NCBI GenBank assembly: GCA_002840905.1
Contig: PHDD01000012.1
Span: 80,144-144,143, forward strand
Reading direction: 5' to 3'
DNA from: Bacteroidetes bacterium HGW-Bacteroidetes-4
GTDB taxonomy: Bacteria; Bacteroidota; Bacteroidia; Bacteroidales; SZUA-534
DNA: 64,000 nt
Under the pieces are notes generated by a model. The model saw only the letters and a program-made list of their open reading frames with translations, ran no database searches and was not told the DNA's origin. The stretch's first letter is position 1, and every line of letters begins with the position of its first letter. The translations under genes and the position numbers were made by a program. Below are positions 130 through 13,932 of the stretch, piece by piece.

Positions 130-150
130 TAAAAATTTAAAACGTTAATT

Positions 151-792: not shown

Positions 793-817
793 TTAGTAAC
801 CCTTAAAACCATTTCAA

Positions 818-1336
818 ATGTATATCAGAAATGTAAAATCGATTAAGATGGGGGATTGTGGCGCTGATGGCGCTATGGGAGCAGCACTCGACACCGTGTT
901 TGAGGACATTGTAAAGGACACCTGTATGATTGACTTTCCCAAGCCGGGCGTGAGTTTTATCACCCCGGACGACAAACCAAACCCCATTGTAGCGTTGATT
1001 GACGACAGTAACGCTGTTATGAAAATCTCCTTTTCAACGTTCAATTGTTCCTCAGCGTTGAAAGCCACTTTGTTTGGCGGCGAAGTCGTCCTAGGCAAAT
1101 GGAGCGCACCCACCACCCGGGTGTTGAAAAACCAAAGTGTTGAGATAACCTCAGGCGACACCGATGGAAAACACGAGGTGGCTACTGCCCCCAAAGTGAT
1201 TGTGGTACCCGGTTACTCGGGTAAGTACAACAAAACAGGCATGGCCGAAATATCGGTCGATATGTATGTTTTGGTTCCAAAGGATGCTCTGGGAGCAGAT
1301 TTGAGTCCATTCCAAAGCGCAGAGGTATCGGTATAG
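818..1336 (+). CDS. Putative major tail protein (call from position only)
   Basis: 172-aa ORF immediately upstream of the chaperone/tape-measure block and followed by a strong hairpin terminator, as is common for abundant structural genes. No motif was recognised. Confidence 0.45.
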   Translation: MYIRNVKSIKMGDCGADGAMGAALDTVFEDIVKDTCMIDFPKPGVSFITPDDKPNPIVALIDDSNAVMKISFSTFNCSSALKATLFGGEVVLGKWSAPTTRVLKNQSVEITSGDTDGKHEVATAPKVIVVPGYSGKYNKTGMAEISVDMYVLVPKDALGADLSPFQSAEVSV

Positions 1337-1344
1337 TATTAATT

Positions 1345-1374
1345 AAAGCCTCGGAATACCTCCGAGGCTTTTTA
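1345..1374 (+). terminator. Rho-independent terminator-like hairpin
   Basis: AAAGCCTCGGA (1345-1355), loop ATACC, then TCCGAGGCTTT (1361-1371). This is a perfect 11-bp stem followed by a T-run. Confidence 0.7.
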
Positions 1375-1385
1375 TACAATTAGCT

Positions 1386-1844
1386 ATGAACGGGAACGAC
1401 ATTCAAAAGAAAGCGGTTGCGGCCATGACCGGGAAAACTAAAAAGGTTACCATGAGGGTGAACCGGCTTACATGGCTGCACCGTTTAAAAATACGGCCTA
1501 AAGAGCGGGCCTTTTCTATTGGCCATTTAAGCCCTGGGAATTTGATGCGAATAAGCGGCTTGTTATTACAAGTTGGCTTTGATGCGAATAAGCCCGACCC
1601 TTGGCGCGAGGCTTTGCGGTGTATGAATCATTCCATGCCCGATTTGATTAAGATTTGTGCAATAGGCATTTCGAACTGCAAGGAGGAACCGCCCGATAAA
1701 CTGCTTGAGTTTATTACGAACGATACCGATTGGGAGTCGGTGTTTAATGTGTTTGTAGCCATAACCTCGAGCCTGGAGATTAAGTCTTTTATGACTTCTA
1801 TCACTTTGATAAAAGGAGTGAGCCTTCTGAATCAGGGGAGTTAA
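1386..1844 (+). CDS. Putative tail assembly chaperone (gpG-like, by position)
   Basis: 152-aa ORF directly upstream of the tape measure gene. Its 3' end overlaps an open -1 frame (see 1859-2026). Confidence 0.5.
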   Translation: MNGNDIQKKAVAAMTGKTKKVTMRVNRLTWLHRLKIRPKERAFSIGHLSPGNLMRISGLLLQVGFDANKPDPWREALRCMNHSMPDLIKICAIGISNCKEEPPDKLLEFITNDTDWESVFNVFVAITSSLEIKSFMTSITLIKGVSLLNQGS

Positions 1845-1858
1845 ATAGCCCCTGGCAC

Positions 1859-2026
1859 ATGTTTCAAGGTGTGGTTAAGTACTATGGATGGACTTTAGAC
1901 TATGTATTGTGGGAAATAAGTTTTGTAAACTTAATAATGCTGATAGCCGCTATTGAGGGCGACGAGGAACAAGGCGAAGAAATTACCCTGGGCGAATTAG
2001 CCGCCAGGGCCAGCAACGACAAATAA
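1859..2026 (+). CDS. Small ORF (55 aa) in the -1 frame relative to 1386-1844. It is either a candidate gpT-like frameshift extension or an independent small gene
   Basis: ATG at 1859 to TAA at 2024-2026, translating to MFQGVVKYYGWTLDYVLWEISFVNLIMLIAAIEGDEEQGEEITLGELAARASNDK. The frame is open back to 1784, giving a 61-nt overlap with the upstream ORF. It is below the ORF-track size cutoff. Confidence 0.35.
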   Translation: MFQGVVKYYGWTLDYVLWEISFVNLIMLIAAIEGDEEQGEEITLGELAARASNDK

Positions 2027-2035
2027 AAAAAAACA

Positions 2036-5000
2036 ATGAACGACCCGGGAGTTGAATATAGATTGTATTTAGACCAGTTTCGCCAGGATGTGGCCGAGCT
2101 TAAAGGTTTAATGGCGGGCGCCGGTGACCAGGTTGAACAGAAAGTGAACGACCTGGATTCGGTGCTTAAAAAGGTGGGTATTGGCATGGTTAGTTATTTC
2201 ACCTTTGACCAAATTAGGGAAATAACCGCCGAAATTAAAACCCTGACCGCCGATTTTGAAAAGTACGAAGCGGTGCTCACCAATTCGCTGGGCTCGCACG
2301 ACCGGGCGGTTGCTGCTATGGATAAGCTTCAGGAGTTTGCTGCAAAAACCCCCTTTCAATTAAATAACCTTACCGACTCCTTTGTTAAGATGGTAGGCCA
2401 GGGCTTTCAGCCAACCATGGAAGAAATGACAAACCTTGGCGACCTGGCGTCGAGCAAGGCCAAAGATTTTGACCAATTGGCAGAGGCGCTGCTCGATGCT
2501 GAAATGGGCGAAAATGAGCGTTTAAAAGAGTTTGGTATAAAAGCCCAAAAGAACGGCGACATTATTAAGTACACCTTTAAAGGCGTTACCACTGAGGTTG
2601 AGAACAACGCCCAGGCTATTCGCAATTATATACTTGGGCTGGGTAAAATGGAAGGCGTTGCCGGTTCCATGGCCGCCATATCGAAAACGCTGGGTGGCGC
2701 AATGAGTAACGCCGAGGACTCAACCGACGCCCTTTATGTGGCTATAGGTTCGCGCTTGAGCCCTAGTTTAACCGGGTTGTATGGGAATTACTCCAAACTA
2801 ATTGGCCGGGTTACCGAGTGGGTTAAAATTTCTCCAGCCGATAAAATAAGGCAGGAAAGCGAAGAGGTTAATAGGCTGGTTATGCAATTAACCGATTCAA
2901 ATACCAAGGAAGACCAGCGCCGCCATATTCTTGAGCAGCTAAAAGAGTTAAGCCCGGATATTGTCCGCGGCCTTGAGGCAGAAAATCTGAATACAGAAAA
3001 GCTGAAGGAAAACCTGCGCCTTTACAACGAGCAGCTTAGTAACCGCATTATTCTTGCGAATTTAAGCGAGGATGAGGAGTCGAAAGCGGCAAAGCTTGCT
3101 GACGCGAGAACAAAAGAGGCCAATGTGTGGCTCGACATTCAGGAAGCTATTTTAAAAGCCAATAAAGACATTGCCCTTTCGGAGGGTACTAAAGAGGAAA
3201 AGCTAAAAAAGACCGTTGAGTATTTAAGCAAACAGGTTCAATTACAAAAAGAGGCCGGACGCACGGGCTCTGTTCGCGATGTTGGCGGACAAACCATTGA
3301 CTCGAGAACAGAAGAACAAAAGCTTCTTAATTTTCTTAGTATACAAAAAGAGGTACTGGCTGTTCGCGAAAAAGAGCGCGAGGAGCTTGCCTCTGAAACA
3401 GAGGATTATCAAAAGCGCATTGAACAATTAAAGCTAATACTTGGTATAACCGCCGAGATAAACGCCGATGATGATGATGATGATGATGATGATGACGACG
3501 AATCCACCGCTTTTGATAAATGGAAAAAGAATATTCTGGCGCAAAAAGAAGCCTATAAGGAATATGAGGCGGTAAAGTCGCAAATTAGCCAGGACGAGGC
3601 AGACAAGCTTTATGCCGAGCTGCTTAAAAAAGCGGGTACCTATGCCGATTTGTTGAAAAAACTGCTTGCCGGTAAGCTTACCAAAGACCAAATTGGATTT
3701 GCAGCCCTGGAGCTTCAAAGTGTAACGAAAAAAGACGACGCAAAAGCCACCAAGGAGGAGGATAAAGAAGCTAAAAAGCAGCGCGATTACCTAAACAAGC
3801 TATTTGCCGACACAAAAAACCATTACCAAAAGCTTAACGCCCTTACTGAAAAGTACCTGAAGGATAAACAGCTTTTGCAGGAGCGCGGGCTTACCGGTCA
3901 TATTGAAGTGCTCGACGAACAATACCGGGCTGCTGTTTTTGCTCTGCAAAAAGAGAACGGCCTGTATAGCTGGCTGTTTAAGAATATCGAAAATTACAGC
4001 CGCAAGGAGTTAAAGGACTTTATTGCCCGGATTCAAAAGGAGCTTGAAGTTGCCGGAATGCCCGAGGAAAAGAAAATTGAGCTTCAGAAAAAGCTTGCTG
4101 AAGCAAACGAGAAGCTTGACCAAAAACTAGCGTCTAATCTTAGCGACGCTTCAGCTATTTTGGGCGACATGGCAGCACTGGCCGGCACCTTTAACGAAAA
4201 GCTTGCCGAGTCGATTAACACCGCTGCCGATTTAGCCGCCGGAGCGGCCAATATTGCCGCCGGTTTTGCATCGGGTAATTACGCCCAGGCTGTAGGTGGC
4301 ATTTTGCAAACGTTCACTTCAATAATAAAGCTGTTTGGAAACCTGTCGACCCTTGAGGAGAAACGCGCCGAGGCCGAGCGTATAAGAGCCTTCAACGAAG
4401 AGAAATATACCCGCCAGCTTCAGCTACAGAACGATTTTCTTGAGCGCCAAATTGACCTAATAAAGCAACTGAATGGGCTAAAGGCTGACGAATTAACTAG
4501 AAAAACTTTAGATGAAATTACCACACAAAAGAATGCGCTGGAAAACAAAACCTATTATTTGCCAGTATCAGACGAAAATGGGCCTATTGGTTCGGTTGAA
4601 GTTAGCGGCGTTGAAGAAGCCTATGCTTATGCTCAATCTTTAGTTAAAAGCGGATACAGCTTGCAAAGTGATGTCTGGGATATGATTAACCAGGACATGG
4701 AGCATTATGAAGGGCTTGTCGAAGCTTTTAATCAAATGATGGACGAGTGGAATGAGCGGGTTACCGGTACAACCGCCAGCTCGCTGGGCGATAAAATTGC
4801 CCAAATATGGCTCGACGCCCAGCTTGCTGGCGACGACTTTATTAAACGCTTTGGAGAAGGACTGAACGATGTGATGCGCGAGGCTTTGGTTGCCCAGTTC
4901 AAAGACCGCTTTATTATGGAGCAGGCTGCGCAATGGTATGAGAGTTTAGCCGAAGCCAGCCGCGACGCCGATGGACTTACAGCCGAGGAACGCACCGCAT

Positions 5001-5320
5001 TAAATCAGCAGTGGTTAGCCATGATTGCCGAAATGGACGAACAGTGGAAAACAATGGTTGAGAATTTTCCCGACCTTTTTAGCCCGTCGGCGCTTGCCGG
5101 AACCGACTCGCAATCGACCGCCGGAGCTGTTAAAAACATCCAGGAAGGAACTGCAAATATATTGGCCGGGCACACCGGAGCCATGCGGGTAGACCTGGCG
5201 AAATTGGTTATTAGTGCCAGTCAGCACCTCGACGTTTTAAACAAGATGGATAAAAAGCTGGGCAACATTGAAAAATACACCAAAGAAACCCGCGACGTTT
5301 TACAAAATTCAGGATTTTAG
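2036..5320 (+). CDS. Tail tape measure protein
   Basis: 1094 aa, the largest gene of the module, with extensive coiled-coil. It has a TMP core-like segment, KTPFQLNNLTDSFVKMVGQGFQPTMEEMTNLGDLASS. It sits after the chaperone pair and before the Dit/Tal-like genes. Confidence 0.9.
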   Translation: MNDPGVEYRLYLDQFRQDVAELKGLMAGAGDQVEQKVNDLDSVLKKVGIGMVSYFTFDQIREITAEIKTLTADFEKYEAVLTNSLGSHDRAVAAMDKLQEFAAKTPFQLNNLTDSFVKMVGQGFQPTMEEMTNLGDLASSKAKDFDQLAEALLDAEMGENERLKEFGIKAQKNGDIIKYTFKGVTTEVENNAQAIRNYILGLGKMEGVAGSMAAISKTLGGAMSNAEDSTDALYVAIGSRLSPSLTGLYGNYSKLIGRVTEWVKISPADKIRQESEEVNRLVMQLTDSNTKEDQRRHILEQLKELSPDIVRGLEAENLNTEKLKENLRLYNEQLSNRIILANLSEDEESKAAKLADARTKEANVWLDIQEAILKANKDIALSEGTKEEKLKKTVEYLSKQVQLQKEAGRTGSVRDVGGQTIDSRTEEQKLLNFLSIQKEVLAVREKEREELASETEDYQKRIEQLKLILGITAEINADDDDDDDDDDDESTAFDKWKKNILAQKEAYKEYEAVKSQISQDEADKLYAELLKKAGTYADLLKKLLAGKLTKDQIGFAALELQSVTKKDDAKATKEEDKEAKKQRDYLNKLFADTKNHYQKLNALTEKYLKDKQLLQERGLTGHIEVLDEQYRAAVFALQKENGLYSWLFKNIENYSRKELKDFIARIQKELEVAGMPEEKKIELQKKLAEANEKLDQKLASNLSDASAILGDMAALAGTFNEKLAESINTAADLAAGAANIAAGFASGNYAQAVGGILQTFTSIIKLFGNLSTLEEKRAEAERIRAFNEEKYTRQLQLQNDFLERQIDLIKQLNGLKADELTRKTLDEITTQKNALENKTYYLPVSDENGPIGSVEVSGVEEAYAYAQSLVKSGYSLQSDVWDMINQDMEHYEGLVEAFNQMMDEWNERVTGTTASSLGDKIAQIWLDAQLAGDDFIKRFGEGLNDVMREALVAQFKDRFIMEQAAQWYESLAEASRDADGLTAEERTALNQQWLAMIAEMDEQWKTMVENFPDLFSPSALAGTDSQSTAGAVKNIQEGTANILAGHTGAMRVDLAKLVISASQHLDVLNKMDKKLGNIEKYTKETRDVLQNSGF
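3467..3499 (+). repeat. (GAT)9(GAC)2 trinucleotide microsatellite encoding Asp11 inside the tape measure gene
   Basis: Read directly: nine GAT then two GAC codons, translated INADDDDDDDDDDDEST. Confidence 0.95.
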
Positions 5321-5322
5321 CT

Positions 5323-6492
5323 ATGCAATACTTAATTAATAATACCGATGTTTTTGCCGCCAATGGCATTGAGGTTATAAAAGTTACCGGGCTGCTCGAT
5401 GGAGCGGCTCAACGTATAAGTAAACGCGTTTGGGCAGACAAAAGCGGTGTAGACGTTGACTTTAATAACATCAGGCTAAAAGAGCAGGACTACACCTTTG
5501 AGTGTATTTGCCTGGCCGACAGCAAGCAGGCGCTTGTAGATAAAATGCAGGCCTTTAATAGTGCTTTTGCCGCCGGGTTGGTTGTACTTAGTGTTCGTGG
5601 CGATTATCGCAAAGGAATGCTTGTGTTTAAAGAGCCCGAGATTACCGGCAAATATTCGCCAGCTTCAGGCGGGCAACATGCCTATTTATTTAATCTGAAG
5701 CTTACCGACGCCAACCCGGCGGCAACGCGGTGGATTACTTACGGCAGTGGCGATGTGGTTAATACGATTACCTATGCCGGAACAGAGCCCGCCTATATAT
5801 TTTGGGGCGACGGAGCCAGGGAGTTATTGCCCGGCCCTGGTGATTATACGCACCAATACGCCAGCGCCGGAGAGGTTGATATTATTATAGATGCCGACGG
5901 AGTTACTACCGTGGGATATCCTTACACTTTAGACCCAACCGATGGCTTAAGCTTTACGGCAAACGACGACTTTACTTTTGCTGTTGACGCTGTAAAATAT
6001 GGTGCCTTTGGACACCCAACTTATGGCAATGCAATAGATTCAAAGTGGCAAATTATACGGGATGGTGTGGTTCTACTCGAAACCAACGCCAGTGTGCTTA
6101 ATTATAGCCAGGCTTTTACGGTTAATGAGCCAACGGTTTTTGAGCTCAGACTGTGGGCTTTGTATAATTACAATGGGGCAACCTTCTGGCTATCGAAGGA
6201 CCCATTTAATAAGACTCATACTGTTAATTTAGTTAACGCCGGCATCACTACTTATAGACATGGTAAGTTTCCGCCTTACCCGGCTTATGGAACGGCTCAC
6301 CTGAACCTAAGCGGTAATGCGTTGAGCCAGGCTTCAGTTGACGAGTTGTTGCTAAGCTCAGAGATTGTGGCCTCCGATAATGGGTATTTGAATATTTCAG
6401 GCGGAACCAACGCGGTACCCAACGCCTCGGGAATTTCGGCAATCAATACTTTAATAAGTAAAGGATGGGAGGTTTATTATAATGCTTCTTAA
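5323..6492 (+). CDS. Distal tail protein (Dit)-like, with a C-terminal extension
   Basis: 389-aa ORF starting 2 nt after the tape measure stop, which is the canonical Dit position. The C-terminus contains an LRR-like stretch, LNLSGNALSQASVDELL. Confidence 0.55.
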   Translation: MQYLINNTDVFAANGIEVIKVTGLLDGAAQRISKRVWADKSGVDVDFNNIRLKEQDYTFECICLADSKQALVDKMQAFNSAFAAGLVVLSVRGDYRKGMLVFKEPEITGKYSPASGGQHAYLFNLKLTDANPAATRWITYGSGDVVNTITYAGTEPAYIFWGDGARELLPGPGDYTHQYASAGEVDIIIDADGVTTVGYPYTLDPTDGLSFTANDDFTFAVDAVKYGAFGHPTYGNAIDSKWQIIRDGVVLLETNASVLNYSQAFTVNEPTVFELRLWALYNYNGATFWLSKDPFNKTHTVNLVNAGITTYRHGKFPPYPAYGTAHLNLSGNALSQASVDELLLSSEIVASDNGYLNISGGTNAVPNASGISAINTLISKGWEVYYNAS

Positions 6493-8047
6493 GATTTACA
6501 GAGATAGCGCAATTATTGCCTACGTTCGCCCTGATGACAATAGCGAGCTGGTTCAAAAGCTTATGACCGACGACCTGGTTAAATTGAGCTTTACCCACAG
6601 CTCGTATATTGATTTGCAAATTGGCGACAACCTACTATTGAACGGCCTTGAATACTGTTTGAACAGCTTGCCTAATTACACCAAGGCCAGCGCCAACGAG
6701 CACAAATACGAGTGTCAATTCCAGGGCGGTATTTACGAGCTTCAAAAAGCAAGCTTTTTGCTTTACTCCGATTTTTATTTCGATTTTACCGGCAACGCCC
6801 AGGGCTTTCTCGATTTGTGTATTACCAACCTTAACCGCGATTTGGGAGGCTATAGCGCCGGAACCTGCGATGTTACCGAGGTAAAAACACTCACCTTCGA
6901 CAATATGAGTGTGCTCGATGCCATAAACTACATTAAAGACGAGCTGGGCTTTGAGTTTTATCTTGTTGGTAAGGTGTTGCACTTTACCACTCCCGGCGTT
7001 GACACTGGGTTAACCTTTAAAGTGGGCCGGTTCCAGGGTCTTTATGAGCTCACGCGCAAAAAGGTTGAAAGCGCCAATATAATTACCCGGCTGTGGGCGT
7101 ATGGCAGTCAGAACAACCTACCGCCCGACTATGTAAGTCCGTTGGTATATAAGCGTCTGGCTTTTGAGAACCCGCTGCTTAACAACGAGAGCCGAGTAGA
7201 GAGTAATGTTGCTTTGTACGGCATCCGTGAAGCGGTAAAGGTATTCGACGACATTAAGCCCGAGCGCACTGGTACGGTTACTGGTATCGATACCGAAAAC
7301 AACCGGGTGTTTATCGATACCGCTATGGACTTCGATTTAAACGCCTACCTGCTGGCCGGACTTACACCCAAAGCCAACTTTAAAACCGGAGCTTTGGCCG
7401 GGATAACCTTCGATTTAAGTTACGACAACGCCACTCAGACCTTTACCGTTGATTACTTTACCGACGAGAGCGGAACCTACCCCAATGAAATCCTGAAGTT
7501 TGCCATTGGCGACCAGTATGTTTTGTTTGATATATGGCTCCCGCCTGCTTATGTTACCGATGCCAAAAGCCGCTTAAAAACAGCAGCCGAGGCGTGGCTG
7601 GCAAAATTTGACCACCCAAACGCAATGTATGAGCTGAATAACGACGAGGCTTATGTGCGCGACAATGCCATAAGCTTTACCCTTGGCGACTCCGTTACCA
7701 TAAGCGATACTGATTTAGCCATAAATGGGCTTATCCGCATTACCGGCATATCGCGGAACATTGCAAACCCATACAAATACAAGCTCGATGTGGGCGAACT
7801 TATGCCCACGCCCTTGCTGAAAAGCATCGGCACACAATTAAAGAACGCCCAGGCGGCCACACAAAGCAATACGGTAGAGGTTCAAACTGTGAAGCTAAAA
7901 AAAGCCGACACCGCCTCGGTATTTACACAGGCGCAGACGTTGGCGCTTATCGGTGATATTGATAGAAAATTTTATGGGGGACGGGCTGATGAGGTTTATC
8001 AGCTCCCAAACGACAATATTAACTGCGGAAACGCACTAAGAGAATAG
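6482..8047 (+). CDS. Tail-associated / baseplate hub (Tal-like) protein
   Basis: 521-aa ORF overlapping the Dit-like gene by 11 nt, in the canonical position after Dit. The call rests on synteny and size. Confidence 0.5.
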   Translation: MLLKIYRDSAIIAYVRPDDNSELVQKLMTDDLVKLSFTHSSYIDLQIGDNLLLNGLEYCLNSLPNYTKASANEHKYECQFQGGIYELQKASFLLYSDFYFDFTGNAQGFLDLCITNLNRDLGGYSAGTCDVTEVKTLTFDNMSVLDAINYIKDELGFEFYLVGKVLHFTTPGVDTGLTFKVGRFQGLYELTRKKVESANIITRLWAYGSQNNLPPDYVSPLVYKRLAFENPLLNNESRVESNVALYGIREAVKVFDDIKPERTGTVTGIDTENNRVFIDTAMDFDLNAYLLAGLTPKANFKTGALAGITFDLSYDNATQTFTVDYFTDESGTYPNEILKFAIGDQYVLFDIWLPPAYVTDAKSRLKTAAEAWLAKFDHPNAMYELNNDEAYVRDNAISFTLGDSVTISDTDLAINGLIRITGISRNIANPYKYKLDVGELMPTPLLKSIGTQLKNAQAATQSNTVEVQTVKLKKADTASVFTQAQTLALIGDIDRKFYGGRADEVYQLPNDNINCGNALRE

Positions 8048-8049
8048 AC

Positions 8050-8715
8050 ATGGCAGACCAAATTCAGATAAGATATGATACAGCCGAAAACTGGACGGCT
8101 GTTAATCCTGTGCTCGCAATTGCAGAGGAAGGACACGAACTTGTTACCAACAAGCGAAAAATAGGCGACGGCGTAACCGCATGGAATGCCCTGCCATATT
8201 TCGGCGGTGAAAATGGCCCGAGTACCGCAAATATAATTCACGGGGCCACGGCAAAAGAAACGCTCGCTGATGCCGACGAGTTGGCCCTTGTTGATAGTGA
8301 GGATGGCAATAGCTTAAAGAAGCTTAGCATTGCCAATCTAAATGCAATCTTTTTAGCCTGGCTAAAAACGTTTTTTACCAGCCGGAAAACCATTGAGGTT
8401 AGTGTAGCTGCCGGACAATTACAGTTTGATTTTGATAGCCTCCGCGAGGTGTGGGCAACCAAAACCGGGGGCGGTGCAATTGTAGTTAACGAGAATGTGA
8501 CTATTAGCTATGTGAACGCGACCAATTTCAAGAGCTTGTGGTTTCCGGTAAACGTAACCACCAGCGCCAGAACCTTCACGTTCCCAGGTGACCATATTTG
8601 CGGTGACGAGCGTTGGATAAGCCCGCTGCTTACCCTTGAGGTGGGAAAGTACCAAATATCGGTGATGAACGATGGGGTGAATAAACATGTGAGCTGTAGC
8701 CAAAAGGAGGTTTAG
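8050..8715 (+). CDS. Tail fibre protein with an Mtd_N / hyaluronidase-type N-terminal motif
   Basis: The N-terminus reads IQIRYDTAENWTAVNPVLAIAEEGHELVTNKRKIGDGVTAWNALPYFGG. This matches the widespread fibre motif (R..T...W...NP.L..GE.G.E.DT...KIGDG.T.WN.LPY). Confidence 0.6.
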   Translation: MADQIQIRYDTAENWTAVNPVLAIAEEGHELVTNKRKIGDGVTAWNALPYFGGENGPSTANIIHGATAKETLADADELALVDSEDGNSLKKLSIANLNAIFLAWLKTFFTSRKTIEVSVAAGQLQFDFDSLREVWATKTGGGAIVVNENVTISYVNATNFKSLWFPVNVTTSARTFTFPGDHICGDERWISPLLTLEVGKYQISVMNDGVNKHVSCSQKEV

Positions 8716-8716
8716 T

Positions 8717-9832
8717 ATGAGTTTGATTGTTGCCAATAACGCCAATTTGTGGGGCAAAGCCTCAAAGCCTTTCGTAACTGAATGGACTGTTCCCGACAAT
8801 ACAACGGTGACGCTCCCACATTTAAGCGGGTATGTTTATACCTATTTTGTTGACTGGGGGGATGGCTCCCCCCGCAAGTACGTAGCCGCTTATAATGACC
8901 CTAATGCCTCACACACCTATGCTGTAGCCGGAACCTACGAGGTTAAGATTGTGGGGACTTGTGAGAGCTTTTGGGTGAGCAATGGAGCTATGAAAGGTTA
9001 TATCACGAAGCATTTAAAATTTGGTGATATAGGTCTTGTGGCTTTGAATTTTTATGGTTGTTCTAATCTTACCGGCACTATACCGGATGATTCTGAGGGA
9101 CTCAATAAATTGGTAAATGGAGCCGCAATGTATTTTGGCACGAGTGTTTCCGGGTCAATTCCTTCAAACTTCCTTTATTATTCTCATTTAGTAACCAATC
9201 TATCATATGCGCTTGCTAGTACAGATTTAACAGGAATAGTTCCGGTAACATTTCTCGACCATTGCACCGAATTGACTAACATAAGTAATTTATTCTCAGG
9301 CTCACAAATTTCTGGGGGGATACCAGTTAATTTCCTTATCTACTGTACAAAGCTAACGAATGTTCGGTATTTGTTTAGAGAAACCCTGGTATCAGGAGCT
9401 ATTCCAGCAAACTTATTTATAAATTGTACTTTACTAACAGATGCCGCAGGAGTGTTTTGGATTTGCCCAAACATTACAGGGGCAATTCCGGCAGGTTATT
9501 TGTCAAATTGTACGCTACTAAACACAGTTTACGGCCATTTCAGAGATACTGGCATTTCTAATACAATTCCAAACGATTTTCTTTCAAATCACCCATATTT
9601 AGCAATAGTTTCTTATTTGTTTTATAACACTGATTTATCAGGTGATGTACCTGCCAATTTATTTGCAAACAGCCCAAATATTACTGAAATGATTGGAACG
9701 TTTAGGTTCCTGTCCTTATTGACTGGGGATGCCCCAGCTTATTGGCTCCGGGTGCCCGAACCGAACGGAACTACATGTTTTGGAAGCTGTAATTTTGATA
9801 ATCAAGCATTAATACCTGCAACATGGAAATAG
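8717..9832 (+). CDS. Putative receptor-binding protein: PKD-like domain plus ~9 LRR-like repeats of ~27 aa
   Basis: PKD-like signature FVDWGDGSPRKYVAAYNDPNASHTYAVAGTYEVKIVG. It is followed by repeats of the form F....(L/I)(S/T)G.IP.NF(L).NC..LT....., for example FSGSQISGGIPVNFLIYCTKLTNVRYL. It is the last large gene of the tail module. Confidence 0.6.
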   Translation: MSLIVANNANLWGKASKPFVTEWTVPDNTTVTLPHLSGYVYTYFVDWGDGSPRKYVAAYNDPNASHTYAVAGTYEVKIVGTCESFWVSNGAMKGYITKHLKFGDIGLVALNFYGCSNLTGTIPDDSEGLNKLVNGAAMYFGTSVSGSIPSNFLYYSHLVTNLSYALASTDLTGIVPVTFLDHCTELTNISNLFSGSQISGGIPVNFLIYCTKLTNVRYLFRETLVSGAIPANLFINCTLLTDAAGVFWICPNITGAIPAGYLSNCTLLNTVYGHFRDTGISNTIPNDFLSNHPYLAIVSYLFYNTDLSGDVPANLFANSPNITEMIGTFRFLSLLTGDAPAYWLRVPEPNGTTCFGSCNFDNQALIPATWK

Positions 9833-10035
9833 ACCTTATACAATCAGAGACAAGCGAGATGACACTAATTAACTTGGGTGATATATTACCCCCTGAAGTA
9901 ATTACTGAGGTGGTTAACCTTAGAGCCGGGTATGCTATCGATATCCGCGCCACAAACGAGAGTCCAAGGCTTTTGGTTAACCTGGGGGAGCTTATTGCCC
10001 CGGGTGTTATTACGCAGGTGTTTAACGCTAAATAA
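9823..10035 (+). CDS. Small phage protein (70 aa) with an internal duplication
   Basis: It overlaps the RBP gene end by 10 nt. LINLGDILPPEVITEVVNL and LVNLGELIAPGVITQVFNA are two copies of one motif. There is no TM segment. Confidence 0.4.
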   Translation: MEIDLIQSETSEMTLINLGDILPPEVITEVVNLRAGYAIDIRATNESPRLLVNLGELIAPGVITQVFNAK

Positions 10036-10040
10036 AAAGC

Positions 10041-10080
10041 TTTTAAAGGTAATACACGGGAAAAGTATTAACCTTTAAAA
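10041..10080 (+). terminator. Hairpin after the tail module
   Basis: TTTTAAAGGT (10041-10050) pairs perfectly with ACCTTTAAAA (10071-10080). The stem extends imperfectly through GGTAATAC/GTATTAACC. There is no clean T-run. Confidence 0.5.
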
Positions 10081-10089
10081 CTTAAAGTC

Positions 10090-10878
10090 ATGCGAATTTA
10101 TTTAAAAACGCCGGTAAGCTACTACGGCGGTAAACAAATGATGCTCAAGGAAATTTTACCGCTCATTCCTGAGCATTCGCTTTATTGCGAACCCTTTTGC
10201 GGCGGTGCAGCGGTGTTTTGGGCGAAAGAACCCAGCAAAGTAGAGGTAATAAACGACCTTAACACCGAAGTAATAAACTTTTACAGGGTTTTAAAGCTAC
10301 ATTTCGACGAGCTTTACAGCCTGGTTCAATCCACCATCCACAGTCGCCAGCTTTACGACGACGCACGGGTAATAAGTTCAAACCCTCATTTATTTTCTGA
10401 AGTAAAACGCGCCTGGGCCTTTTGGGTAAACACGTCGCAAAGCTTCAGTTCAATTATTGGCGGCGGCTGGGCTTATGCCCGCAAAGAAAACACTTGTGAG
10501 AAAAAGGTTGACAATGCAAAGCTTCGCTTTCAGGAGGTGTTTAGCAACCGTTTAAGCCGTGTTCAAATTGAAAGCCAGGACGCGCTCCGGGTGATAAAAA
10601 GCCGGGATAGTGTTGATACGTTCTTTTATTGCGATCCGCCCTACCCGGAAACTGACCAGGGTCATTATACGGGGTACACACAACATCATTTTAATGCCCT
10701 CCTGGAAACATTGTCGAATGTTAAGGGGAGGTTTCTTTTATCGTCGTTCCCTAACGCTGAGCTTAATAAATACGCACAGCGGTTTGGTTGGATTCAAACA
10801 GAGCACTCTAAAAACCTGTGTGCTACCAAAATAAATAAGGGTAAAAAGAAGGTGGAAGTATTGACCCGGAATTATTAA
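10090..10878 (+). CDS. dam: Orphan DNA adenine methyltransferase (Dam / D12 class N6-MTase)
   Basis: N-terminal YYGGKQMMLKEILPLIPEHSLYCEPFCGGAAVFW (SAM-binding FxGxG-type) and the catalytic DPPY in FFYCDPPYPETDQGHY. No adjacent restriction gene is present. Confidence 0.9.
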   Translation: MRIYLKTPVSYYGGKQMMLKEILPLIPEHSLYCEPFCGGAAVFWAKEPSKVEVINDLNTEVINFYRVLKLHFDELYSLVQSTIHSRQLYDDARVISSNPHLFSEVKRAWAFWVNTSQSFSSIIGGGWAYARKENTCEKKVDNAKLRFQEVFSNRLSRVQIESQDALRVIKSRDSVDTFFYCDPPYPETDQGHYTGYTQHHFNALLETLSNVKGRFLLSSFPNAELNKYAQRFGWIQTEHSKNLCATKINKGKKKVEVLTRNY

Positions 10879-10884
10879 TAAAAA

Positions 10885-11012
10885 GGTCAGAGTGCAAGCG
10901 CCAACTATCAAGGGAAACCCAGGGGGGCGTAAAAAGCCCCGCACTCTGACCCGTATTTTGGTAATACACGGGCAAAACGCGGGGTTTCCCTTTTAAAATT
11001 TTGATAGTTGGC
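10885..11012. repeat. Interleaved inverted repeats between convergent genes (terminator or structured element)
   Basis: IR-A: GGTCAGAGTGC 10885-10895 pairs with GCACTCTGACC 10941-10951. IR-B: GCCAACTATCAAGGGAAACCC 10900-10920 pairs with GGGTTTCCC 10982-10990 plus TTGATAGTTGGC 11001-11012. Inner hairpin: GGGGC-GTAAAAA-GCCCC at 10924-10940. Confidence 0.6.
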
Positions 11013-11032
11013 ACTACAAATATAGGCAGGTT

Positions 11033-11521
11033 TTAAAAGTTTTGAAGCTTTTTATTGAAAAAACTTAAAGCCTCCTTATCCTCCACACCCAGCAGGCGCA
11101 CAAACAAATAGATGCAATAGTAGGGTTTAGTAATTAAATCCTTGTAATCCTTCCAAACAACATCCCAAAGCTCCTCCATTCCCGAAAGCTTTAAGTGAGT
11201 AAGCTGCAAATAAATGTCTAAATATCGGGAGTATTCGCCGCCCTGGTTCCACGTCGCAGAGCTGCGGTACTTTCTGAACTCCGGCAATGATGCCTTTACC
11301 GTGTTTTTTGCTTCAATGTCCTGAATTACGTTTGACAAAGCAAAGAGGTTTTGCTTAGCAGTCAACAAAATAGCCTGCTCAATTTCATCGTTCATTCGGT
11401 CTGACTGCAATACAGCCTCAATAGTGCGCACCGATTTTTGAGTGTGCAAGCTTAGCTGTTGTTTATCAGCCTTGCTTATAAGCTGCCTAATGGCTTTCAT
11501 TTGAATTTCTGAGATTATCAT
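11033..11521 (-). CDS. Hypothetical protein, possibly a DNA-binding regulator at the prophage edge
   Basis: 162-aa ORF convergent with dam. The N-terminal segment LSLHTQKSVRTIEAVLQSD resembles a helix-turn-helix. Its promoter region contains a palindrome. Function is not recognised. Confidence 0.55.
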   Translation of the reverse strand: MIISEIQMKAIRQLISKADKQQLSLHTQKSVRTIEAVLQSDRMNDEIEQAILLTAKQNLFALSNVIQDIEAKNTVKASLPEFRKYRSSATWNQGGEYSRYLDIYLQLTHLKLSGMEELWDVVWKDYKDLITKPYYCIYLFVRLLGVEDKEALSFFNKKLQNF

Positions 11522-11529
11522 ACGTCAAG

Positions 11530-11555
11530 TTTGTAGTTTATTTACTACAAAAGTA
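11530..11555 (-). promoter_or_regulatory. Candidate Bacteroidota-type -7 promoter element overlapping an 8-bp palindrome
   Basis: The minus strand reads TACTTTTG (= TAnnTTTG) at 11555-11548, 27 nt upstream of the ATG at 11521. TTTGTAGT (11530-11537) and ACTACAAA (11544-11551) form an inverted repeat. Confidence 0.4.
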
Positions 11556-12018
11556 AGCTATTTTTAGTATCAATCCACAAATTGTAGAGTGATTCATTTT
11601 AAGCCTATTTACGGCACTAGTCAAAAATACCTACTAATACAGCTTCGATAAGATAAACCGTCTTATTCTCAGTGTATTTGCCTTAGAGCGGATAAATGTT
11701 AGATTATTTTCCCTGGATTGTCGGGTATTTACTACAAAAAGTAGCTATTTTCGTCGCGATTATAGGTGTGTTTTTCCATTGCAAAAGTGTACATTTGGAA
11801 TTGTTTAAATGTACATTTGAAATCGCGGATTATAAATAAGAATAAGTTTTTCACTGTACTATTTTTTTAGTTAGAAAACCCGAAAATAGAAATATTCTTT
11901 CACTAATTCAATTTTTACTCCCGCGCAAATTTTATGTTATGGGATTGCTTTGGGTATGTGCCGTGCTAAAATGCGATGAATTCTTCTGTTTGTTGGCTGC
12001 TTAGCCAGTCGGGTTCAA

Positions 12019-13932
12019 CTATTCCAGGTAATTCCTGAGCAGTTGTATAAATTGATTTTCGTCGATAGGGTTTTGTACTACCATATCGCCAATGGGTTCA
12101 GGAATAAACTCGACCAGTTCTTTTTCCACGTTATTGTGGGCTATAACCGGTATGTCGGGATAATTTTCTTTAAGGCTTTTTACCAGTTCCGAAGCAGGCA
12201 TGTAGGGAAGGTAGAGGTTTACTATTATCAGGGTTACCACTTGGTTTTGTTCCAGTAATTCGAGGGCTTGCCGGGCTCTTTCGGCAAAAACTAAAGTTGC
12301 CTGGGTTTTATGCAACAGGGCTTTTAGTTTTTCGTCCTCCCAGGAATGCTTTCCGATAATTAACAAGGTTTTACCTATTAAATTTAATTCGCTTGTTTGA
12401 ATTGATTTTTGCTTATTTAACTGGGGCTTTACCGGAATGCTCACACTAAACATGGTTTCTTTTCCGGGAATACTGACAAACTCGATGGTTCCGTTCAATA
12501 ATTCAACCAGTGCCTTTACAATGGACAAGCCGATTCCGGTTCCACCATACTTTCGGGTGTTTTGGTTGTCGAGTTGCCGAAACGATTCGTAAATTTCCGA
12601 TTTAATTTTTTTCGATATGCCGATACCCGTATCTTTTACCATTAAATTTAGCTTATTATTGGGTGTAATATCAATAAATACATCGATATGCCCCTCGTCG
12701 GTGAACTTAATGGCATTGTCGATGAGCTTGGTGGCAATTTGTTTTAATCCTTCCAGATCGCTTATAATAGGGCAGGGGTTGGGAATGTTATTGATAATGG
12801 AAAAAGTCAGTTTGTGTTCTTTAAGGATGAAAACTTCGCGGGTATAGCGATTGGCCAGCTCTTCAATCAGGATATTTATATCGAATAATTCAGGATGCAG
12901 GGTATATTGACCCGATTCGAGCCGAGCCATCATCATAATGTCGGAAATTACATGCAACAGGTTGTTGGTACTGGTTTGTATAATGTTGAGGTAGCGGTGG
13001 GCTTCGTTGGTGTTTATGTCATCGCCCTTGAGCAGGGTGGTAAACCCAACAATAGCATTCATGGGTGTACGAACCTCGTGCGACATGTTCGACAGGAAAC
13101 TCGACTTCAGTTGGTCGGCTGCCTGGGCTTTTTCTTTAGCCTCTTGCAGCAAACGGTTCGATTCTTCGAGTTGTTGGTTTGTTAGGTTGAGTTGTTGGTT
13201 TATTTGCTGATATTCCTGATTGATTTTTTTACTTTCGTCGATTTGTTTCTTTAAAAGCTGCTCGGTTTGTTTCCGGTTTTCAATCTCTTTCGACAACAAT
13301 CGGTTAATCCGTTGCAGGTTCACTTCATGCAGGTTGCTCAATTCTATTTTTTGGGTTAAAAATTGCAGGGTTTTATTCCAAAACATAAAAATTACTGCAG
13401 CTACTATCGAAAACAGCAGCAGTAGCATGGCCCAGCTCGAAAGGGAATCTACAAAAAGTTCCACATCGGCCTGAATGGTAAGTAGCTTAAAGCGGAATAA
13501 AAAGGCGCAGGCAATATAGAAAACTATAACCGTGGTAAGCGAAATAATGCCCCACAACTTGTTTATGAGAATGGCTGCAAGTACCACAAACAGTAATAAA
13601 AGTAAAACGCCCTGCGACAGCAATCCATAGGTTAATATTCCCCCGGCTCCTACGGTAAAGATTACCATTAACAGAATCCAGGCTCGGAGCTGCCACGACA
13701 TCAGGTTGCGCCACACAAAACTTGACAAAAGTACCATAGCCATAACCACATGGTAATAATTTAAGGGGGTAATGCCGAATTCACGAATACGCAGCAGGGT
13801 TCCCAGCAGGGCAAACCACATAAATATAATAACAATCCAACCCAGCAAATCGACCAATTTGGCTTTTATCTGGCTCAGTTCATTGATGGTAGCACTGGAA
13901 TCAGTTGTTGTTGGTTTTGTTCGTTTAATCAT
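12019..13932 (-). CDS. Membrane-bound sensor histidine kinase with a degenerate C-terminal receiver-like domain
   Basis: About 6 N-terminal TM helices, then a coiled-coil. H-box FLSNMSHEVRTPMNAIVGF. ATPase G-boxes DTGIGIS and GGTGIGLSIV. The C-terminal REC-like fold has N where the phospho-Asp is expected (LIIVNLYLPYM). Confidence 0.9.
   Translation of the reverse strand: MIKRTKPTTTDSSATINELSQIKAKLVDLLGWIVIIFMWFALLGTLLRIREFGITPLNYYHVVMAMVLLSSFVWRNLMSWQLRAWILLMVIFTVGAGGILTYGLLSQGVLLLLLFVVLAAILINKLWGIISLTTVIVFYIACAFLFRFKLLTIQADVELFVDSLSSWAMLLLLFSIVAAVIFMFWNKTLQFLTQKIELSNLHEVNLQRINRLLSKEIENRKQTEQLLKKQIDESKKINQEYQQINQQLNLTNQQLEESNRLLQEAKEKAQAADQLKSSFLSNMSHEVRTPMNAIVGFTTLLKGDDINTNEAHRYLNIIQTSTNNLLHVISDIMMMARLESGQYTLHPELFDINILIEELANRYTREVFILKEHKLTFSIINNIPNPCPIISDLEGLKQIATKLIDNAIKFTDEGHIDVFIDITPNNKLNLMVKDTGIGISKKIKSEIYESFRQLDNQNTRKYGGTGIGLSIVKALVELLNGTIEFVSIPGKETMFSVSIPVKPQLNKQKSIQTSELNLIGKTLLIIGKHSWEDEKLKALLHKTQATLVFAERARQALELLEQNQVVTLIIVNLYLPYMPASELVKSLKENYPDIPVIAHNNVEKELVEFIPEPIGDMVVQNPIDENQFIQLLRNYLE

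What the first reader, a model, noticed from the sequence alone, without database searches (positions are those of the whole stretch)
8717..9832. Phage receptor-binding gene built from a PKD-like domain plus nine LRR-like repeats, with the repeats in a sharp low-GC trough
Seen: the N-terminus has a PKD-like WGDG...HTY..GTY.V signature. About nine 27-aa repeats with a G-x-IP-x-N-F/L core follow. Hand counts of G+C on 60-nt lines give 50% (8761-8820) and 45% (8941-9000). Counts then drop to 32% (9001-9060), 40% (9061-9120), 33% (9181-9240), 38% (9301-9360) and 32% (9541-9600). They rise back to 58% at 9721-9780. The ~700-bp repeat cassette therefore has host-like or lower GC inside a ~50% GC phage gene. 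Inference: the specificity module was acquired by recombination or exchanged as a cassette. LRR/BspA-like folds are unusual as siphophage receptor-binding domains.
Basis: partly seen in the sequence, partly recalled or inferred. Interest (0 to 1): 0.55.

Follow-up and report, generated by a model that had tools for sequence, protein, structure and literature searches.

The report
Swapped leucine-rich-repeat phage tail adhesin
The last large gene of a prophage's tail module encodes a small beta-sandwich followed by a leucine-rich-repeat solenoid, and the solenoid part has been replaced by recombination with low-GC DNA; this is a clear but fairly ordinary case of phages swapping their host-recognition modules.

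Summary
ORF 8717-9832 (371 aa) sits in a siphophage-type tail module (tape measure, Dit, Tal, Mtd_N-like fibre, this gene, a 70-aa ORF). The prophage lies in a Bacteroidales MAG. All eight hand GC counts reproduce exactly. The trough (8972-9661) has GC 0.370 and GC3 0.283. The rest of the phage has GC 0.466±0.017 and GC3 0.50±0.05, so the shift is synonymous and not an amino-acid effect. AlphaFold (pLDDT 95) gives a beta-sandwich plus a nine-turn LRR solenoid with a 27-aa period. A sister prophage (L001) is 87.5% identical in DNA up to about nt 9010 and again from about 9805. The LRR part in between does not align at DNA level and is 38% identical in protein, with sharp mosaic breakpoints. A third phage (L002) carries DUF285 repeats after the same N-domain. 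A fourth (L067) has an unrelated repeat protein in the same slot. Cassette exchange is therefore supported. The donor is unknown, and its codon usage fits low-GC phages best. The receptor-binding role is inferred from synteny only. The PKD label rests on a sub-threshold motif. LRR or DUF285 tail proteins are already annotated in many phages, so this is a new member of a known kind.

The parts
2036..5320 (+). Tail tape measure protein (1094 aa)
   Evidence: PHROG tape-measure families, E down to 1.9e-39
5323..6492 (+). Dit-like distal tail protein (389 aa). It carries its own PKD-like motif (YIFWGDG..YTHQY) and a C-terminal ISGGTNAVP..GWEVYYN motif.
   Evidence: phrog_14220 E 2.9e-12 and phrog_6305 'tail protein'; translation; 32% identical to the L067 Dit
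6482..8047 (+). Tal / Prophage_tail-type tail tip protein (521 aa)
   Evidence: Pfam PF06605 Prophage_tail E 1.5e-10, above its cutoff; phrog_19846 E 7e-95
8050..8715 (+). Fibre-like protein (221 aa). It has an Mtd_N-type N-terminus. Its C-terminal domain (aa 111-221) precedes the slot in all four related phages.
   Evidence: Pfam Mtd_N E 2.6e-4 (below cutoff); PHROG tail-fibre families, E to 6e-15; 75% identical in L067, and 51% identical to the C-terminus of the 578-aa protein of L002
8717..9832 (+). The gene in question: a 371-aa candidate distal tail adhesin / receptor-binding protein
   Evidence: ORF; AlphaFold2 pLDDT 95.0, pTM 0.92; position in the tail module
8717..8770 (+). N-terminal peptide aa 1-18 (MSLIVANNANLWGKASKP). 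It is disordered or helical in the model. Proposed docking peptide (inferred).
   Evidence: pLDDT below 50 for aa 1-11; identical in L001, MSLLTTNHNL.. in L002, MSLLANNGLQFG in the otherwise unrelated L067 protein
8771..8974 (+). Beta-sandwich aa 19-86 with a PKD-type motif (WGDG..HTY..GTYEV)
   Evidence: Strands E19-25, 29-32, 41-46, 54-56, 65-68 and 72-82; Pfam PKD/PKD_4 sub-threshold; ColH PKD domain by profile E 5.8e-6; Foldseek not significant
9044..9091 (+). Conserved junction NFYGCSNLTGTIPDD (first LRR turn). It forms a DNA identity island at the left edge of the exchanged block.
   Evidence: DNA alignment of window, L001 and L002; F and C of the FYGC motif are at least 90% conserved across 18 homologues with three repeat classes
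9032..9763 (+). Nine LRR turns of 26-28 aa (aa 106-349)
   Evidence: Repeat table; profile hits to LRR structures, E 5e-22; Foldseek top hits are plant LRR receptor ectodomains, E 1.5e-10, TM up to 0.55, rmsd 2.6 Å over 260 columns
9764..9829 (+). C-terminal cap (aa 350-371) ending in the conserved ..LIPATWK
   Evidence: N263, I267, P268, A269 and W271 are invariant in the IP-type cassette alignment; DNA identity with L001 resumes at about 9805
9012..9805 (+). Block replaced relative to sister prophage L001 (the exchanged cassette)
   Evidence: blastn gap 9110-9798 between segments of 87.5% and 80% identity; sliding identity; fine alignments
8972..9661 (+). Low-GC trough (GC 0.370, GC3 0.283)
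   Evidence: codon-usage likelihood
9823..10035 (+). 70-aa ORF whose start overlaps the stop of the gene. It travels with the slot gene in L001 and L002. Function unknown.
   Evidence: translations; 59% identical in L002; no Pfam, PHROG or NCBIfam hit

Best explanation
The gene encodes the most distal protein of a siphophage-type tail. The prophage sits in a Bacteroidales (Salinivirgaceae-related) genome.

The protein has five parts:
- a short N-terminal peptide;
- a small beta-sandwich with a PKD-type motif;
- a conserved FYGCSNL junction;
- a nine-turn leucine-rich-repeat solenoid with a 27-aa period;
- a short C-terminal cap.

Proposed mechanism (inferred). The N-terminal peptide, possibly with the beta-sandwich, docks the protein onto the conserved C-terminal domain of the upstream Mtd_N-like fibre. 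The LRR solenoid then presents a variable surface that binds a host cell-surface structure.

Shown here. The solenoid plus cap (about nt 9012-9805) is a recombination cassette. Relative to a sister prophage it has been replaced by a distantly related allele. The flanks remain about 87% identical in DNA. The left crossover lies next to the conserved junction. The right crossover lies in the last seven codons, which overlap the start of the next ORF.

The cassette carries the codon usage of a lower-GC gene pool. That usage is closest to low-GC phages, which demonstrably share another tail module with this phage. This explains the GC trough.
For: **Tail context.** The order is tape measure, Dit, Tal, Mtd_N-like fibre, this gene. 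The same order is seen in L001. Related arrangements end the tail modules of L002, L051 and L067.

**Coupling and export signals.** The gene is tightly coupled to its neighbours. It has no convincing promoter or terminator of its own. By reading the sequence, it has no signal peptide and no long C-terminal sorting domain.

**Fold.** AlphaFold2 pLDDT is 95. The profile matches LRR structures in the PDB at E 5e-22. Foldseek matches plant LRR ectodomains at E 1e-10 and phage 'leucine-rich repeat' and 'PKD domain-containing' proteins at E down to 3.5e-18.

**Cassette.** Alternative cassette classes follow the same N-domain.

**Composition.** GC3 is 0.283 against 0.50±0.05. The codon-usage log-likelihood difference is -0.038. 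Phage windows give 0.097±0.025 (minimum 0.030) and host windows give -0.078±0.025. The best fit is the L067 phage model.

**Low GC is not intrinsic to such repeats.** In 20 other loci the GC3 of the N-domain and of the repeats track each other and the locus, for example 0.79/0.84 and 0.12/0.11.

**Gene flow with low-GC phages.** The Mtd_N-like gene is 77.7% identical in DNA to L067 (36.7% GC), where it is the high-GC outlier.

**Docking hypothesis.** The same C-terminal domain precedes the slot in the window, L001, L002 and L067, and the slot gene always starts MSL(I/L).

**Precedent.** Klebsiella phage ST16-OXA48phi5.4 gp35 fuses a P2 gpI-like baseplate domain to a beta-sandwich plus LRR array.
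Against: - There is no experimental or proteomic evidence that the protein is in the virion or binds a receptor.
- The upstream Mtd_N-like fibre could be the primary receptor binder, with this protein an accessory adhesin.
- Only one close sister phage (L001) defines the breakpoints.
- No donor was found. The best cassette relative is 41% identical or less among 1.84 billion representatives, and nothing turned up in viral or metagenome contig scans.
- The L001 and L002 alleles are also low-GC, so the trough does not date the exchange.
- The N-terminal peptide match to L067 is too short to be statistically significant.
- A variant with a 31-nt frameshifting deletion exists in another assembly. 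The gene may therefore be dispensable or decaying in part of the population.
Confidence: 0.62

Rival explanations
1. The protein is on the virion but is an accessory adhesin, for reversible binding to glycans or environmental surfaces. The Mtd_N-like fibre (8050-8715) or Tal is the true receptor-binding protein. The cassette exchange still applies.
For: PHROG annotates relatives of the 221-aa protein as tail fibre proteins. That gene is itself mosaic. Ig/PKD-like domains on phages are often accessory adhesion modules (established knowledge). A frameshifted variant of the LRR gene exists in another assembly, which suggests the gene may be dispensable.
Against: It is the last and most variable protein of the module, which is the usual signature of the specificity determinant. 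The 221-aa fibre protein is much more conserved between phages with different slot proteins (75% identical in L067).
Confidence: 0.2
2. The gene is a lysogenic-conversion 'moron': a BspA-like surface adhesin expressed by the lysogen, acquired from the host gene pool. This would explain the host-like GC and the position near the prophage end.
For: Total GC of the cassette (0.370) lies within the host range (0.391±0.036; 30% of host windows are as low or lower). The closest cassette relatives are giant cellular surface-type proteins, such as P0188 next to gdpP-rplI-dnaB. Cellular homologues such as P0020 have signal peptides. The gene lies about 2 kb from the prophage/host junction.
Against: There is no signal peptide, lipobox or T9SS-type C-terminal domain (sequence). 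The start lies 1 nt after the upstream tail gene's stop, and the end overlaps the next ORF. There is no promoter or terminator signal above background. The N-terminal third has phage-type codon usage. The slot is conserved inside the tail modules of four phages.
Confidence: 0.07
3. There was no exchange. The solenoid diverged in place under strong diversifying selection, with an AT-biased mutation spectrum.
For: Both alleles keep the same repeat type, register and C-terminal motif. Receptor-binding domains do evolve fast.
Against: Identity drops abruptly within about 50 nt at both edges while the flanks remain 80-95% identical. Synonymous composition shifts by 0.23 in GC3. Repeat number differs, with 371 against 345 aa. 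L002 and L067 carry non-homologous modules at the same place. Another module has been exchanged with a low-GC phage.
Confidence: 0.06
4. The GC trough is only a by-product of the amino-acid composition of the repeats, which are rich in N, I, F, L, T and S.
For: GC1 and GC2 are slightly lower in the repeats: 0.404 and 0.422 against 0.471 and 0.459.
Against: About 70% of the drop is at third positions, with GC3 at 0.283 against 0.518. In 20 other loci the same kinds of repeats have the GC3 of their genome, up to 0.84.
Confidence: 0.02

Closest known systems
BspA-like / TpLRR surface proteins (Pfam LRR_5, PF13306) and DUF285 'bacterial surface protein 26-residue repeat' proteins (PF03382)
   Same: - The repeat logic is the same (..F..C..L..hydrophobic..).
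- The same N-terminal beta-sandwich and FYGCSNL junction precede DUF285 or LRR_5 arrays in homologues P0003, P0018, P0020, P0021, P0044 and L051.
- hhalign of the IP-type cassette against the DUF285 cassette gives 92.7% probability.
- The profile also hits the Bacteroides LRR_5 structures 4gt6 and 4fs7.
   Different: - The query itself does not hit LRR_5 or DUF285, even at E ≤ 1.
- The period is 27 aa with an (S/T)GxIP motif.
- There is no signal peptide.
- The gene is encoded in a phage tail operon.
Plant LRR receptor-kinase ectodomains (BRI1, BRL2, MIK2, ERL1, FLS2)
   Same: They are the best structural matches: Foldseek E 1.5e-10 to 1e-8, TM up to 0.55, rmsd 2.6-3 Å over about 260 columns. 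They share the L(S/T)GxIP motif.
   Different: Sequence identity is only 17-26%. The period here is 27 aa, not 24. The canonical LxxLxLxxN segment is absent. This is structural convergence or distant superfamily membership, not family membership.
Klebsiella phage ST16-OXA48phi5.4 gp35 'tail protein I' (YP_009882546.1), plus Bacillus phage G gp353 and Klebsiella jumbo-phage gp353-like proteins
   Same: These are phage-encoded proteins with a beta-sandwich carrying a (W/Y)GDG motif followed by LRR turns with IP..LF motifs. tblastn/BLASTP E is 1e-13 to 3e-11. Foldseek against BFVD gives 6.9e-13 for phage G gp353. In the Klebsiella phage the array is covalently fused to a baseplate gpI-like domain and is followed by a 70-aa ORF.
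   Different: Identity is 23-27%. The repeat periods and lengths differ. The phages are a myovirus and jumbo phages. None has a demonstrated function.
Modular receptor-binding proteins of siphophages with exchangeable C-terminal head domains, such as lactococcal p2/TP901-1-type RBPs and lambda-like side tail fibres (established knowledge, not tested here)
   Same: The virion-proximal part is conserved. The distal part is hypervariable and exchanged by recombination at conserved linker sequences. The gene sits at the end of the tail module.
   Different: Those heads are trimeric beta-barrel, beta-prism or fibre folds. Here the head is an LRR solenoid, a fold that normally acts as a monomer.
Bordetella phage BPP-1 Mtd / diversity-generating retroelement targets
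   Same: The upstream neighbour has a weak Mtd_N N-terminal match. Both systems concern variation in tail specificity.
   Different: No template/variable repeat pair occurs in window 1-12500. No C-type-lectin fold is present. Variation here is by whole-cassette replacement.

Membership tests
Leucine-rich repeat (LRR) superfamily | Tandem 20-30-aa units with a conserved hydrophobic pattern that fold into a curved solenoid, one short beta-strand per turn on the concave face | tested here: met
   Nine units of 26-28 aa. The AlphaFold2 solenoid has pLDDT above 95 throughout. The profile matches LRR structures at E 5e-22. The top 50 Foldseek PDB hits are LRR ectodomains.
Pfam LRR_5 (PF13306, BspA type) | Score at or above the Pfam gathering threshold | tested here: not met
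   No LRR_5 hit at E ≤ 1 on the query. Some homologues carry it.
Pfam DUF285 (PF03382) | Score at or above the Pfam gathering threshold (25 bits) | tested here: not met
   No hit at E ≤ 1 on the query. L051 scores 586 bits, and P0003 and others carry it after the same N-domain. A distant relationship is supported by hhalign, 92.7% probability, E 4e-7.
Plant-specific LRR class | 24-residue unit LxxLxLxxNxL(S/T)GxIPxxLGxLxx | tested here: not met
   The unit is 27 aa. The (S/T)GxIP motif is present, but the LxxLxLxxN segment is replaced by LTNxxx(L/F)F. The resemblance is structural only.
PKD domain (PF00801 / PF18911) | Score at or above the gathering threshold | tested here: not met
   PKD_4 scores 21.6 bits against 27, and PKD scores 19.9 against 23.5. 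The profile of homologues reaches the ColH PKD domain at E 5.8e-6 over about 40 positions.
PKD domain (PF00801 / PF18911) | PKD-type beta-sandwich fold | tested here: inconclusive
   The model of the N-domain alone has pLDDT 79. The best Foldseek PDB hit has E 0.19. ColH PKD 2b appears only at rank 31, with E 1.0 and TM 0.33-0.37.
Phage receptor-binding / distal tail protein | Encoded in the tail module downstream of tape measure, Dit and Tal, and co-oriented and coupled with them | tested here: met
   the same order is seen in L001.
Phage receptor-binding / distal tail protein | Present in the virion and required for adsorption to a defined receptor | not testable with these tools
   This needs virion proteomics or cryo-EM and adsorption assays.
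Phage receptor-binding / distal tail protein | Mosaic pattern of a conserved proximal part and an exchanged distal part among related phages | tested here: met
Diversity-generating retroelement target | A variable repeat in the gene paired with a nearby template repeat, plus a reverse transcriptase | tested here: not met
   No direct repeat of 25 nt or more involves 8050-9832 within window 1-12500. A reverse transcriptase further left in the prophage cannot be excluded, because the window starts inside the phage.
Prophage moron / lysogenic-conversion surface protein | An autonomous transcription unit (own promoter and terminator) whose product has an export signal | tested here: not met
   Promoter-like and terminator-like sites are not above shuffled expectation and none brackets the gene. 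The N-terminus MSLIVANNANLWGKASKPF has no signal-peptide features (sequence).

The most novel reading that the evidence does not exclude
LRR-type solenoids are a distinct and so far uncharacterised class of receptor-binding heads in tailed phages of Bacteroidota. They probably act as monomers. A conserved adaptor consists of an N-terminal peptide, a small beta-sandwich and the FYGCSNL junction. This adaptor accepts at least three interchangeable solenoid classes: the 27-aa 'GxIP' LRR, DUF285 and LRR_5. These are drawn from a low-GC pool shared with bacterial surface proteins, and whole-solenoid swapping at that junction retargets the phage. This would be a phage analogue of LRR-based recognition repertoires such as lamprey VLRs and plant receptors.
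Probability: 0.3. Interest if true: 0.6.

Novelty: new member of a known kind. Interest (0 to 1): 0.35.

Why it matters
Host recognition by phages of Bacteroidales and other Bacteroidota is poorly understood. I found no LRR-type phage receptor-binding protein that has been characterised experimentally.

This locus offers a compact 371-aa protein that is modelled with confidence, with mapped exchange boundaries and natural alternative cassettes (L001, L002, L067). That makes it a practical starting point for two things:
- testing whether LRR solenoids can serve as phage specificity modules;
- engineering host range by swapping cassettes at the FYGCSNL junction.

It also shows gene flow between phages of about 47% and about 30-37% GC at the tail tip.

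As a phenomenon, mosaic exchange of the distal part of a tail protein is classical. LRR/DUF285 proteins are already annotated in many phage genomes, so the conceptual novelty is modest.

Tried and rejected
- **Tandem repeats.** Tandem Repeats Finder found no DNA-level repeats in the gene. The repeats are ancient, so recent repeat expansion is rejected.
- **DGR hypothesis.** It was prompted by the Mtd_N hit. No template/variable repeat pair was found.
- **Donor search.** Scans with the cassette found no relatives in viral contigs or metagenome contigs. The exhaustive HMMER search gave 41% identity or less, apart from a fragment of the same gene. The donor remains unknown.
- **Isolated phages.** Megablast of the whole tail region against GenBank phages gave no match.
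- **Genome scan with the N-domain.** It returned only relatives at 49% identity or less, mostly marine Bacteroidota proteins. No further sister prophage was found.
- **PKD fold.** The N-domain model gave no significant Foldseek hit.
- **L067 slot protein.** It has no Pfam hit and no PDB sequence hit, so its fold is untested. Its LRR-like look is only a reading of its repeats.
- **Amino-acid-composition explanation of the trough.** Rejected.
- **Moron hypothesis.** Rejected as the main explanation.
- **Literature.** Searches for LRR/BspA/DUF285 phage receptor-binding proteins found only genome annotations and one structural prediction for phage Goslar.
Full report
**What is there.**
The window begins inside a prophage of about 46-48% GC that ends near nt 11,900. 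From 12,019 onward there are ordinary chromosomal genes: a hybrid histidine kinase, a LacI-type regulator, cytidine deaminase, fmt and GH16, at about 39% GC.

The fmt protein is 100% identical to that of 'Bacteroidetes bacterium HGW-Bacteroidetes-4'. It is 89% identical to a Salinivirgaceae MAG protein, so the host is a Bacteroidales bacterium.

The prophage part is a siphophage-type tail module:
- tape measure, 2036-5320;
- Dit-like protein, 5323-6492;
- Prophage_tail/Tal protein, 6482-8047;
- a 221-aa fibre-like protein with a weak Mtd_N N-terminus, 8050-8715;
- the gene in question, 8717-9832;
- an overlapping 70-aa ORF, 9823-10035;
- a Dam-type methyltransferase, 10090-10878.

**Checking the observation.**
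The trough 8972-9661 has GC 0.370. Windows of 690 nt in the upstream phage DNA give 0.466±0.017 and never fall below 0.423. Host windows give 0.391±0.036.

The decisive point is where in the codon the drop sits. GC3 falls from 0.518 (codons 1-85) to 0.283 (codons 86-315), whereas GC1 and GC2 change little. No 230-codon window in the other phage ORFs goes below GC3 0.413.

A codon-usage likelihood test places the first 98 codons with the phage and the cassette outside the phage range:

| Sequence | Log-likelihood difference (phage minus host model) |
|---|---|
| Target codons 1-98 | +0.084 |
| Cassette (codons 99-363) | -0.038 |
| Phage windows | 0.097±0.025 (minimum 0.030) |
| Host windows | -0.078±0.025 |

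The cassette is fitted best by a codon model built from the low-GC phage L067.

As a control I examined 20 other loci that encode the same N-domain followed by repeats. There the N-domain and the repeats have the same GC3 as each other and as their genome, from 0.11 up to 0.84. Low GC is therefore not a property of such repeats.

**The protein.**
Nine xIP anchors spaced 26-28 aa apart define nine repeats, with consensus LTNvsy(L/F)Fxx(T/S)x(L/I)(S/T)GxIPxNFLxNCTx. They are old. TRF finds nothing at DNA level, and the repeats are on average 41% identical in DNA.

AlphaFold2, run with 32 homologues, gives pLDDT 95.0 and pTM 0.92. The model shows:
- a disordered or helical N-terminal peptide;
- a beta-sandwich at aa 19-86;
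- a continuous solenoid;
- a short cap.

A profile of the family matches solved LRR proteins (LRRTM, Toll, VLRs) at E down to 5e-22. It also matches the Bacteroides BspA-type structures 4gt6 and 4fs7. Foldseek's best PDB matches are plant LRR receptor ectodomains, with E 1.5e-10 and rmsd 2.6 Å over about 260 columns. Among predicted viral structures it finds 'leucine-rich repeat protein', 'PKD domain-containing protein', 'BspA family' and '26-residue repeat' proteins of uncultured phages, plus Bacillus phage G gp353.

The query itself reaches no Pfam LRR family. It belongs to an unmodelled 27-aa subtype that nevertheless has 1506 relatives at E ≤ 1e-3 among 1.84 billion representative proteins. 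Most of these are giant multi-repeat proteins. The best of them, P0188, is a 2231-aa cellular protein next to gdpP-rplI-dnaB.

The 'PKD-like' label rests on the WGDG..HTY..GTY.V motif and on sub-threshold Pfam hits. A model of the N-domain alone found no significant structural neighbour. I therefore call it a beta-sandwich with a PKD-type motif.

**Evidence for cassette exchange.**
The closest homologue, P0001 (54% overall), comes from a sister prophage, L001, with the same gene order.

Comparison of the window with L001:

| Window coordinates | Relation to L001 |
|---|---|
| 3509-9109 | 87.5% DNA identity |
| 9110-9798 | no DNA match |
| 9799-10064 | 80% DNA identity |
| 10065-10959 (methyltransferase) | absent from L001 |
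| 10960-11836 | 90.6% DNA identity |

- Sliding identity and direct alignment put the left break at about 9010-9015. An identity island covers 9044-9091 (NFYGCSNLTGTIPDD).
- The right break is at about 9805, in the last seven codons (LIPATWK), which overlap the ATG of the 70-aa ORF.
- Protein identity is about 92% before the break and about 38% after it.
- L001 has fewer repeats (345 aa).

A more distant phage, L002, keeps the N-domain (61% identical up to aa 131) and the 70-aa ORF (59%), but carries canonical DUF285 repeats. P0044 carries LRR_5 repeats after the same N-domain. L051, a prophage in a Salinivirgaceae MAG, has the N-domain plus about 20 DUF285 units at the end of its tail module, next to the integrase.

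The F and C of the FYGCSNL junction are at least 90% conserved across 18 homologues with all three repeat classes.

Phage L067 (36.7% GC) has the Mtd_N-like gene at 75% protein and 77.7% DNA identity. In L067 that gene is the high-GC outlier. Immediately after it, L067 has an unrelated 489-aa repeat protein that starts MSLLANNG...

The tail tip of this phage group is thus a mosaic, and modules demonstrably move between phages of about 47% GC and those of about 30-37% GC. That is the simplest source for the low-GC cassette. The L001 and L002 alleles are also low in GC3 (0.34 and 0.29). The slot as a whole draws on the low-GC pool, and the trough does not date a recent event in this phage.

**How it most likely works.**

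*Shown:*
- the LRR fold;
- the position in the tail operon;
- tight coupling to the neighbouring genes;
- the recombinational replacement of the solenoid.

*Read from the sequence:*
- There is no signal peptide and no long C-terminal sorting domain. This argues for a virion protein rather than a protein exported by the lysogen.

*Inferred:*
- The protein is the distal adhesin or receptor-binding protein.
- The gene before the slot ends with the same roughly 110-aa domain in the window and L002 (51% identical) and in L067 (75% over the whole protein). L001 has a colinear 221-aa gene at that position.
- The slot gene always begins MSL(I/L).
- I therefore propose that the N-terminal peptide, perhaps with the beta-sandwich, docks onto the C-terminal domain of the fibre, and that the solenoid surface binds the host.

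A cultured precedent for the virion attachment of such a module is Klebsiella phage ST16-OXA48phi5.4 gp35. There a P2 gpI-like baseplate domain is fused to a (Y)GDG beta-sandwich and about 20 LRR turns, followed by a 70-aa ORF and a tail collar fibre.

**Rivals.**
- *Accessory adhesin.* The protein may be accessory, with the Mtd_N-like fibre as the primary binder. This cannot be separated with these tools (about 0.2).
- *Moron-type surface protein of the lysogen.* This fits the host-like total GC and the cellular relatives. It is contradicted by the missing export signals, the coupling to neighbouring genes, the absence of a transcription unit of its own and the conserved slot.
- *In-place divergence.* This is contradicted by the abrupt edges, the synonymous composition shift and the non-homologous alternatives.
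- *Amino-acid-composition artefact.* This is refuted.
- *DGR.* A diversity-generating retroelement is not supported.

**Comparison with what is known, and novelty.**
Exchange of the distal, specificity-determining part of phage tail proteins at conserved junctions is classical. LRR, BspA and DUF285 proteins are annotated in many phage genomes (PMC7765460). They have been proposed as host-recognition elements in phage Goslar on the basis of structure prediction (bioRxiv 10.64898/2026.04.21.720040). My literature searches found no such protein that has been characterised experimentally as a receptor-binding protein.

The finding is therefore a well-documented new member of a known kind. What it adds:
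- mapped breakpoints;
- a conserved adaptor and junction that accepts three solenoid classes;
- evidence for a low-GC donor pool.

Interest is moderate to low (0.35).

Noticed in passing
window 9252-9282; loci L094 and L095: Another assembly (GCA_017973775.1, L094) carries the same phage segment (window 7483-9493). It is identical except for a 31-nt deletion between short TAACAT direct repeats. The deletion frameshifts the gene to 178 aa. A third assembly's contig (L095) is 100% identical and ends at window 9250, exactly at the edge of the deletion. This suggests that both variants coexist in that metagenome.
   Followed up: partly
window 10065-10959: The Dam-type N6-adenine methyltransferase gene (10090-10878, Pfam E 1e-24) is an insertion relative to sister prophage L001. 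An imperfect 38-nt inverted repeat (10858-10895 / 10941-10978) lies at its 3' side.
   Followed up: partly
window 8050-8715: The Mtd_N-like fibre gene is itself mosaic. Its first 120 nt or so are only 50-60% identical to L001, while the rest is 80-95% identical. The gene is 77.7% identical in DNA to a 36.7%-GC phage (L067), which shares no other substantial DNA with the window (only a 32-nt match at 5264-5295).
   Followed up: partly
window 5323-6492: The Dit-like protein carries its own PKD-type motif (YIFWGDG..YTHQY..GEVDIII, aa ~158-190). Its C-terminal ISGGTNAVP...GWEVYYN segment is 49% identical to the C-terminus of L067's 489-aa slot protein. It also resembles the C-termini of DUF285 proteins.
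   Followed up: partly
window 9823-10035: A 70-aa ORF overlaps the stop of the LRR gene. It is conserved after different cassettes in L001 and in L002 (59% identical). It has no hit in any family library. A 70-aa ORF of the same size, but dissimilar in sequence, follows the LRR-bearing gp35 of Klebsiella phage ST16-OXA48phi5.4.
   Followed up: partly
window 11531-11564 and 11718-11751: A 34-nt direct repeat (82% identical, 187 nt apart) lies in the AT-rich stretch between the last phage ORF and the first host gene. It may be related to the attachment site or to regulation.
   Followed up: no
window 58604-59188 and 50746-52017: ORF 58604-59188 has very low GC (0.279, GC3 0.236) compared with its neighbours. 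ORF 50746-52017 has an odd codon-position profile (GC2 0.627, GC3 0.290), which suggests an unusual composition or a wrongly chosen frame.
   Followed up: no
L096 1592-8287: The closest relative of the cassette (P0188, 39% identical) is a 2231-aa protein that combines Flg_new, PKD, DUF285 and LRR_5 signatures. It lies next to gdpP, rplI and dnaB on a 39-kb metagenomic contig. It is therefore a cellular giant surface-type protein that mixes several solenoid repeat classes in one chain.
   Followed up: no
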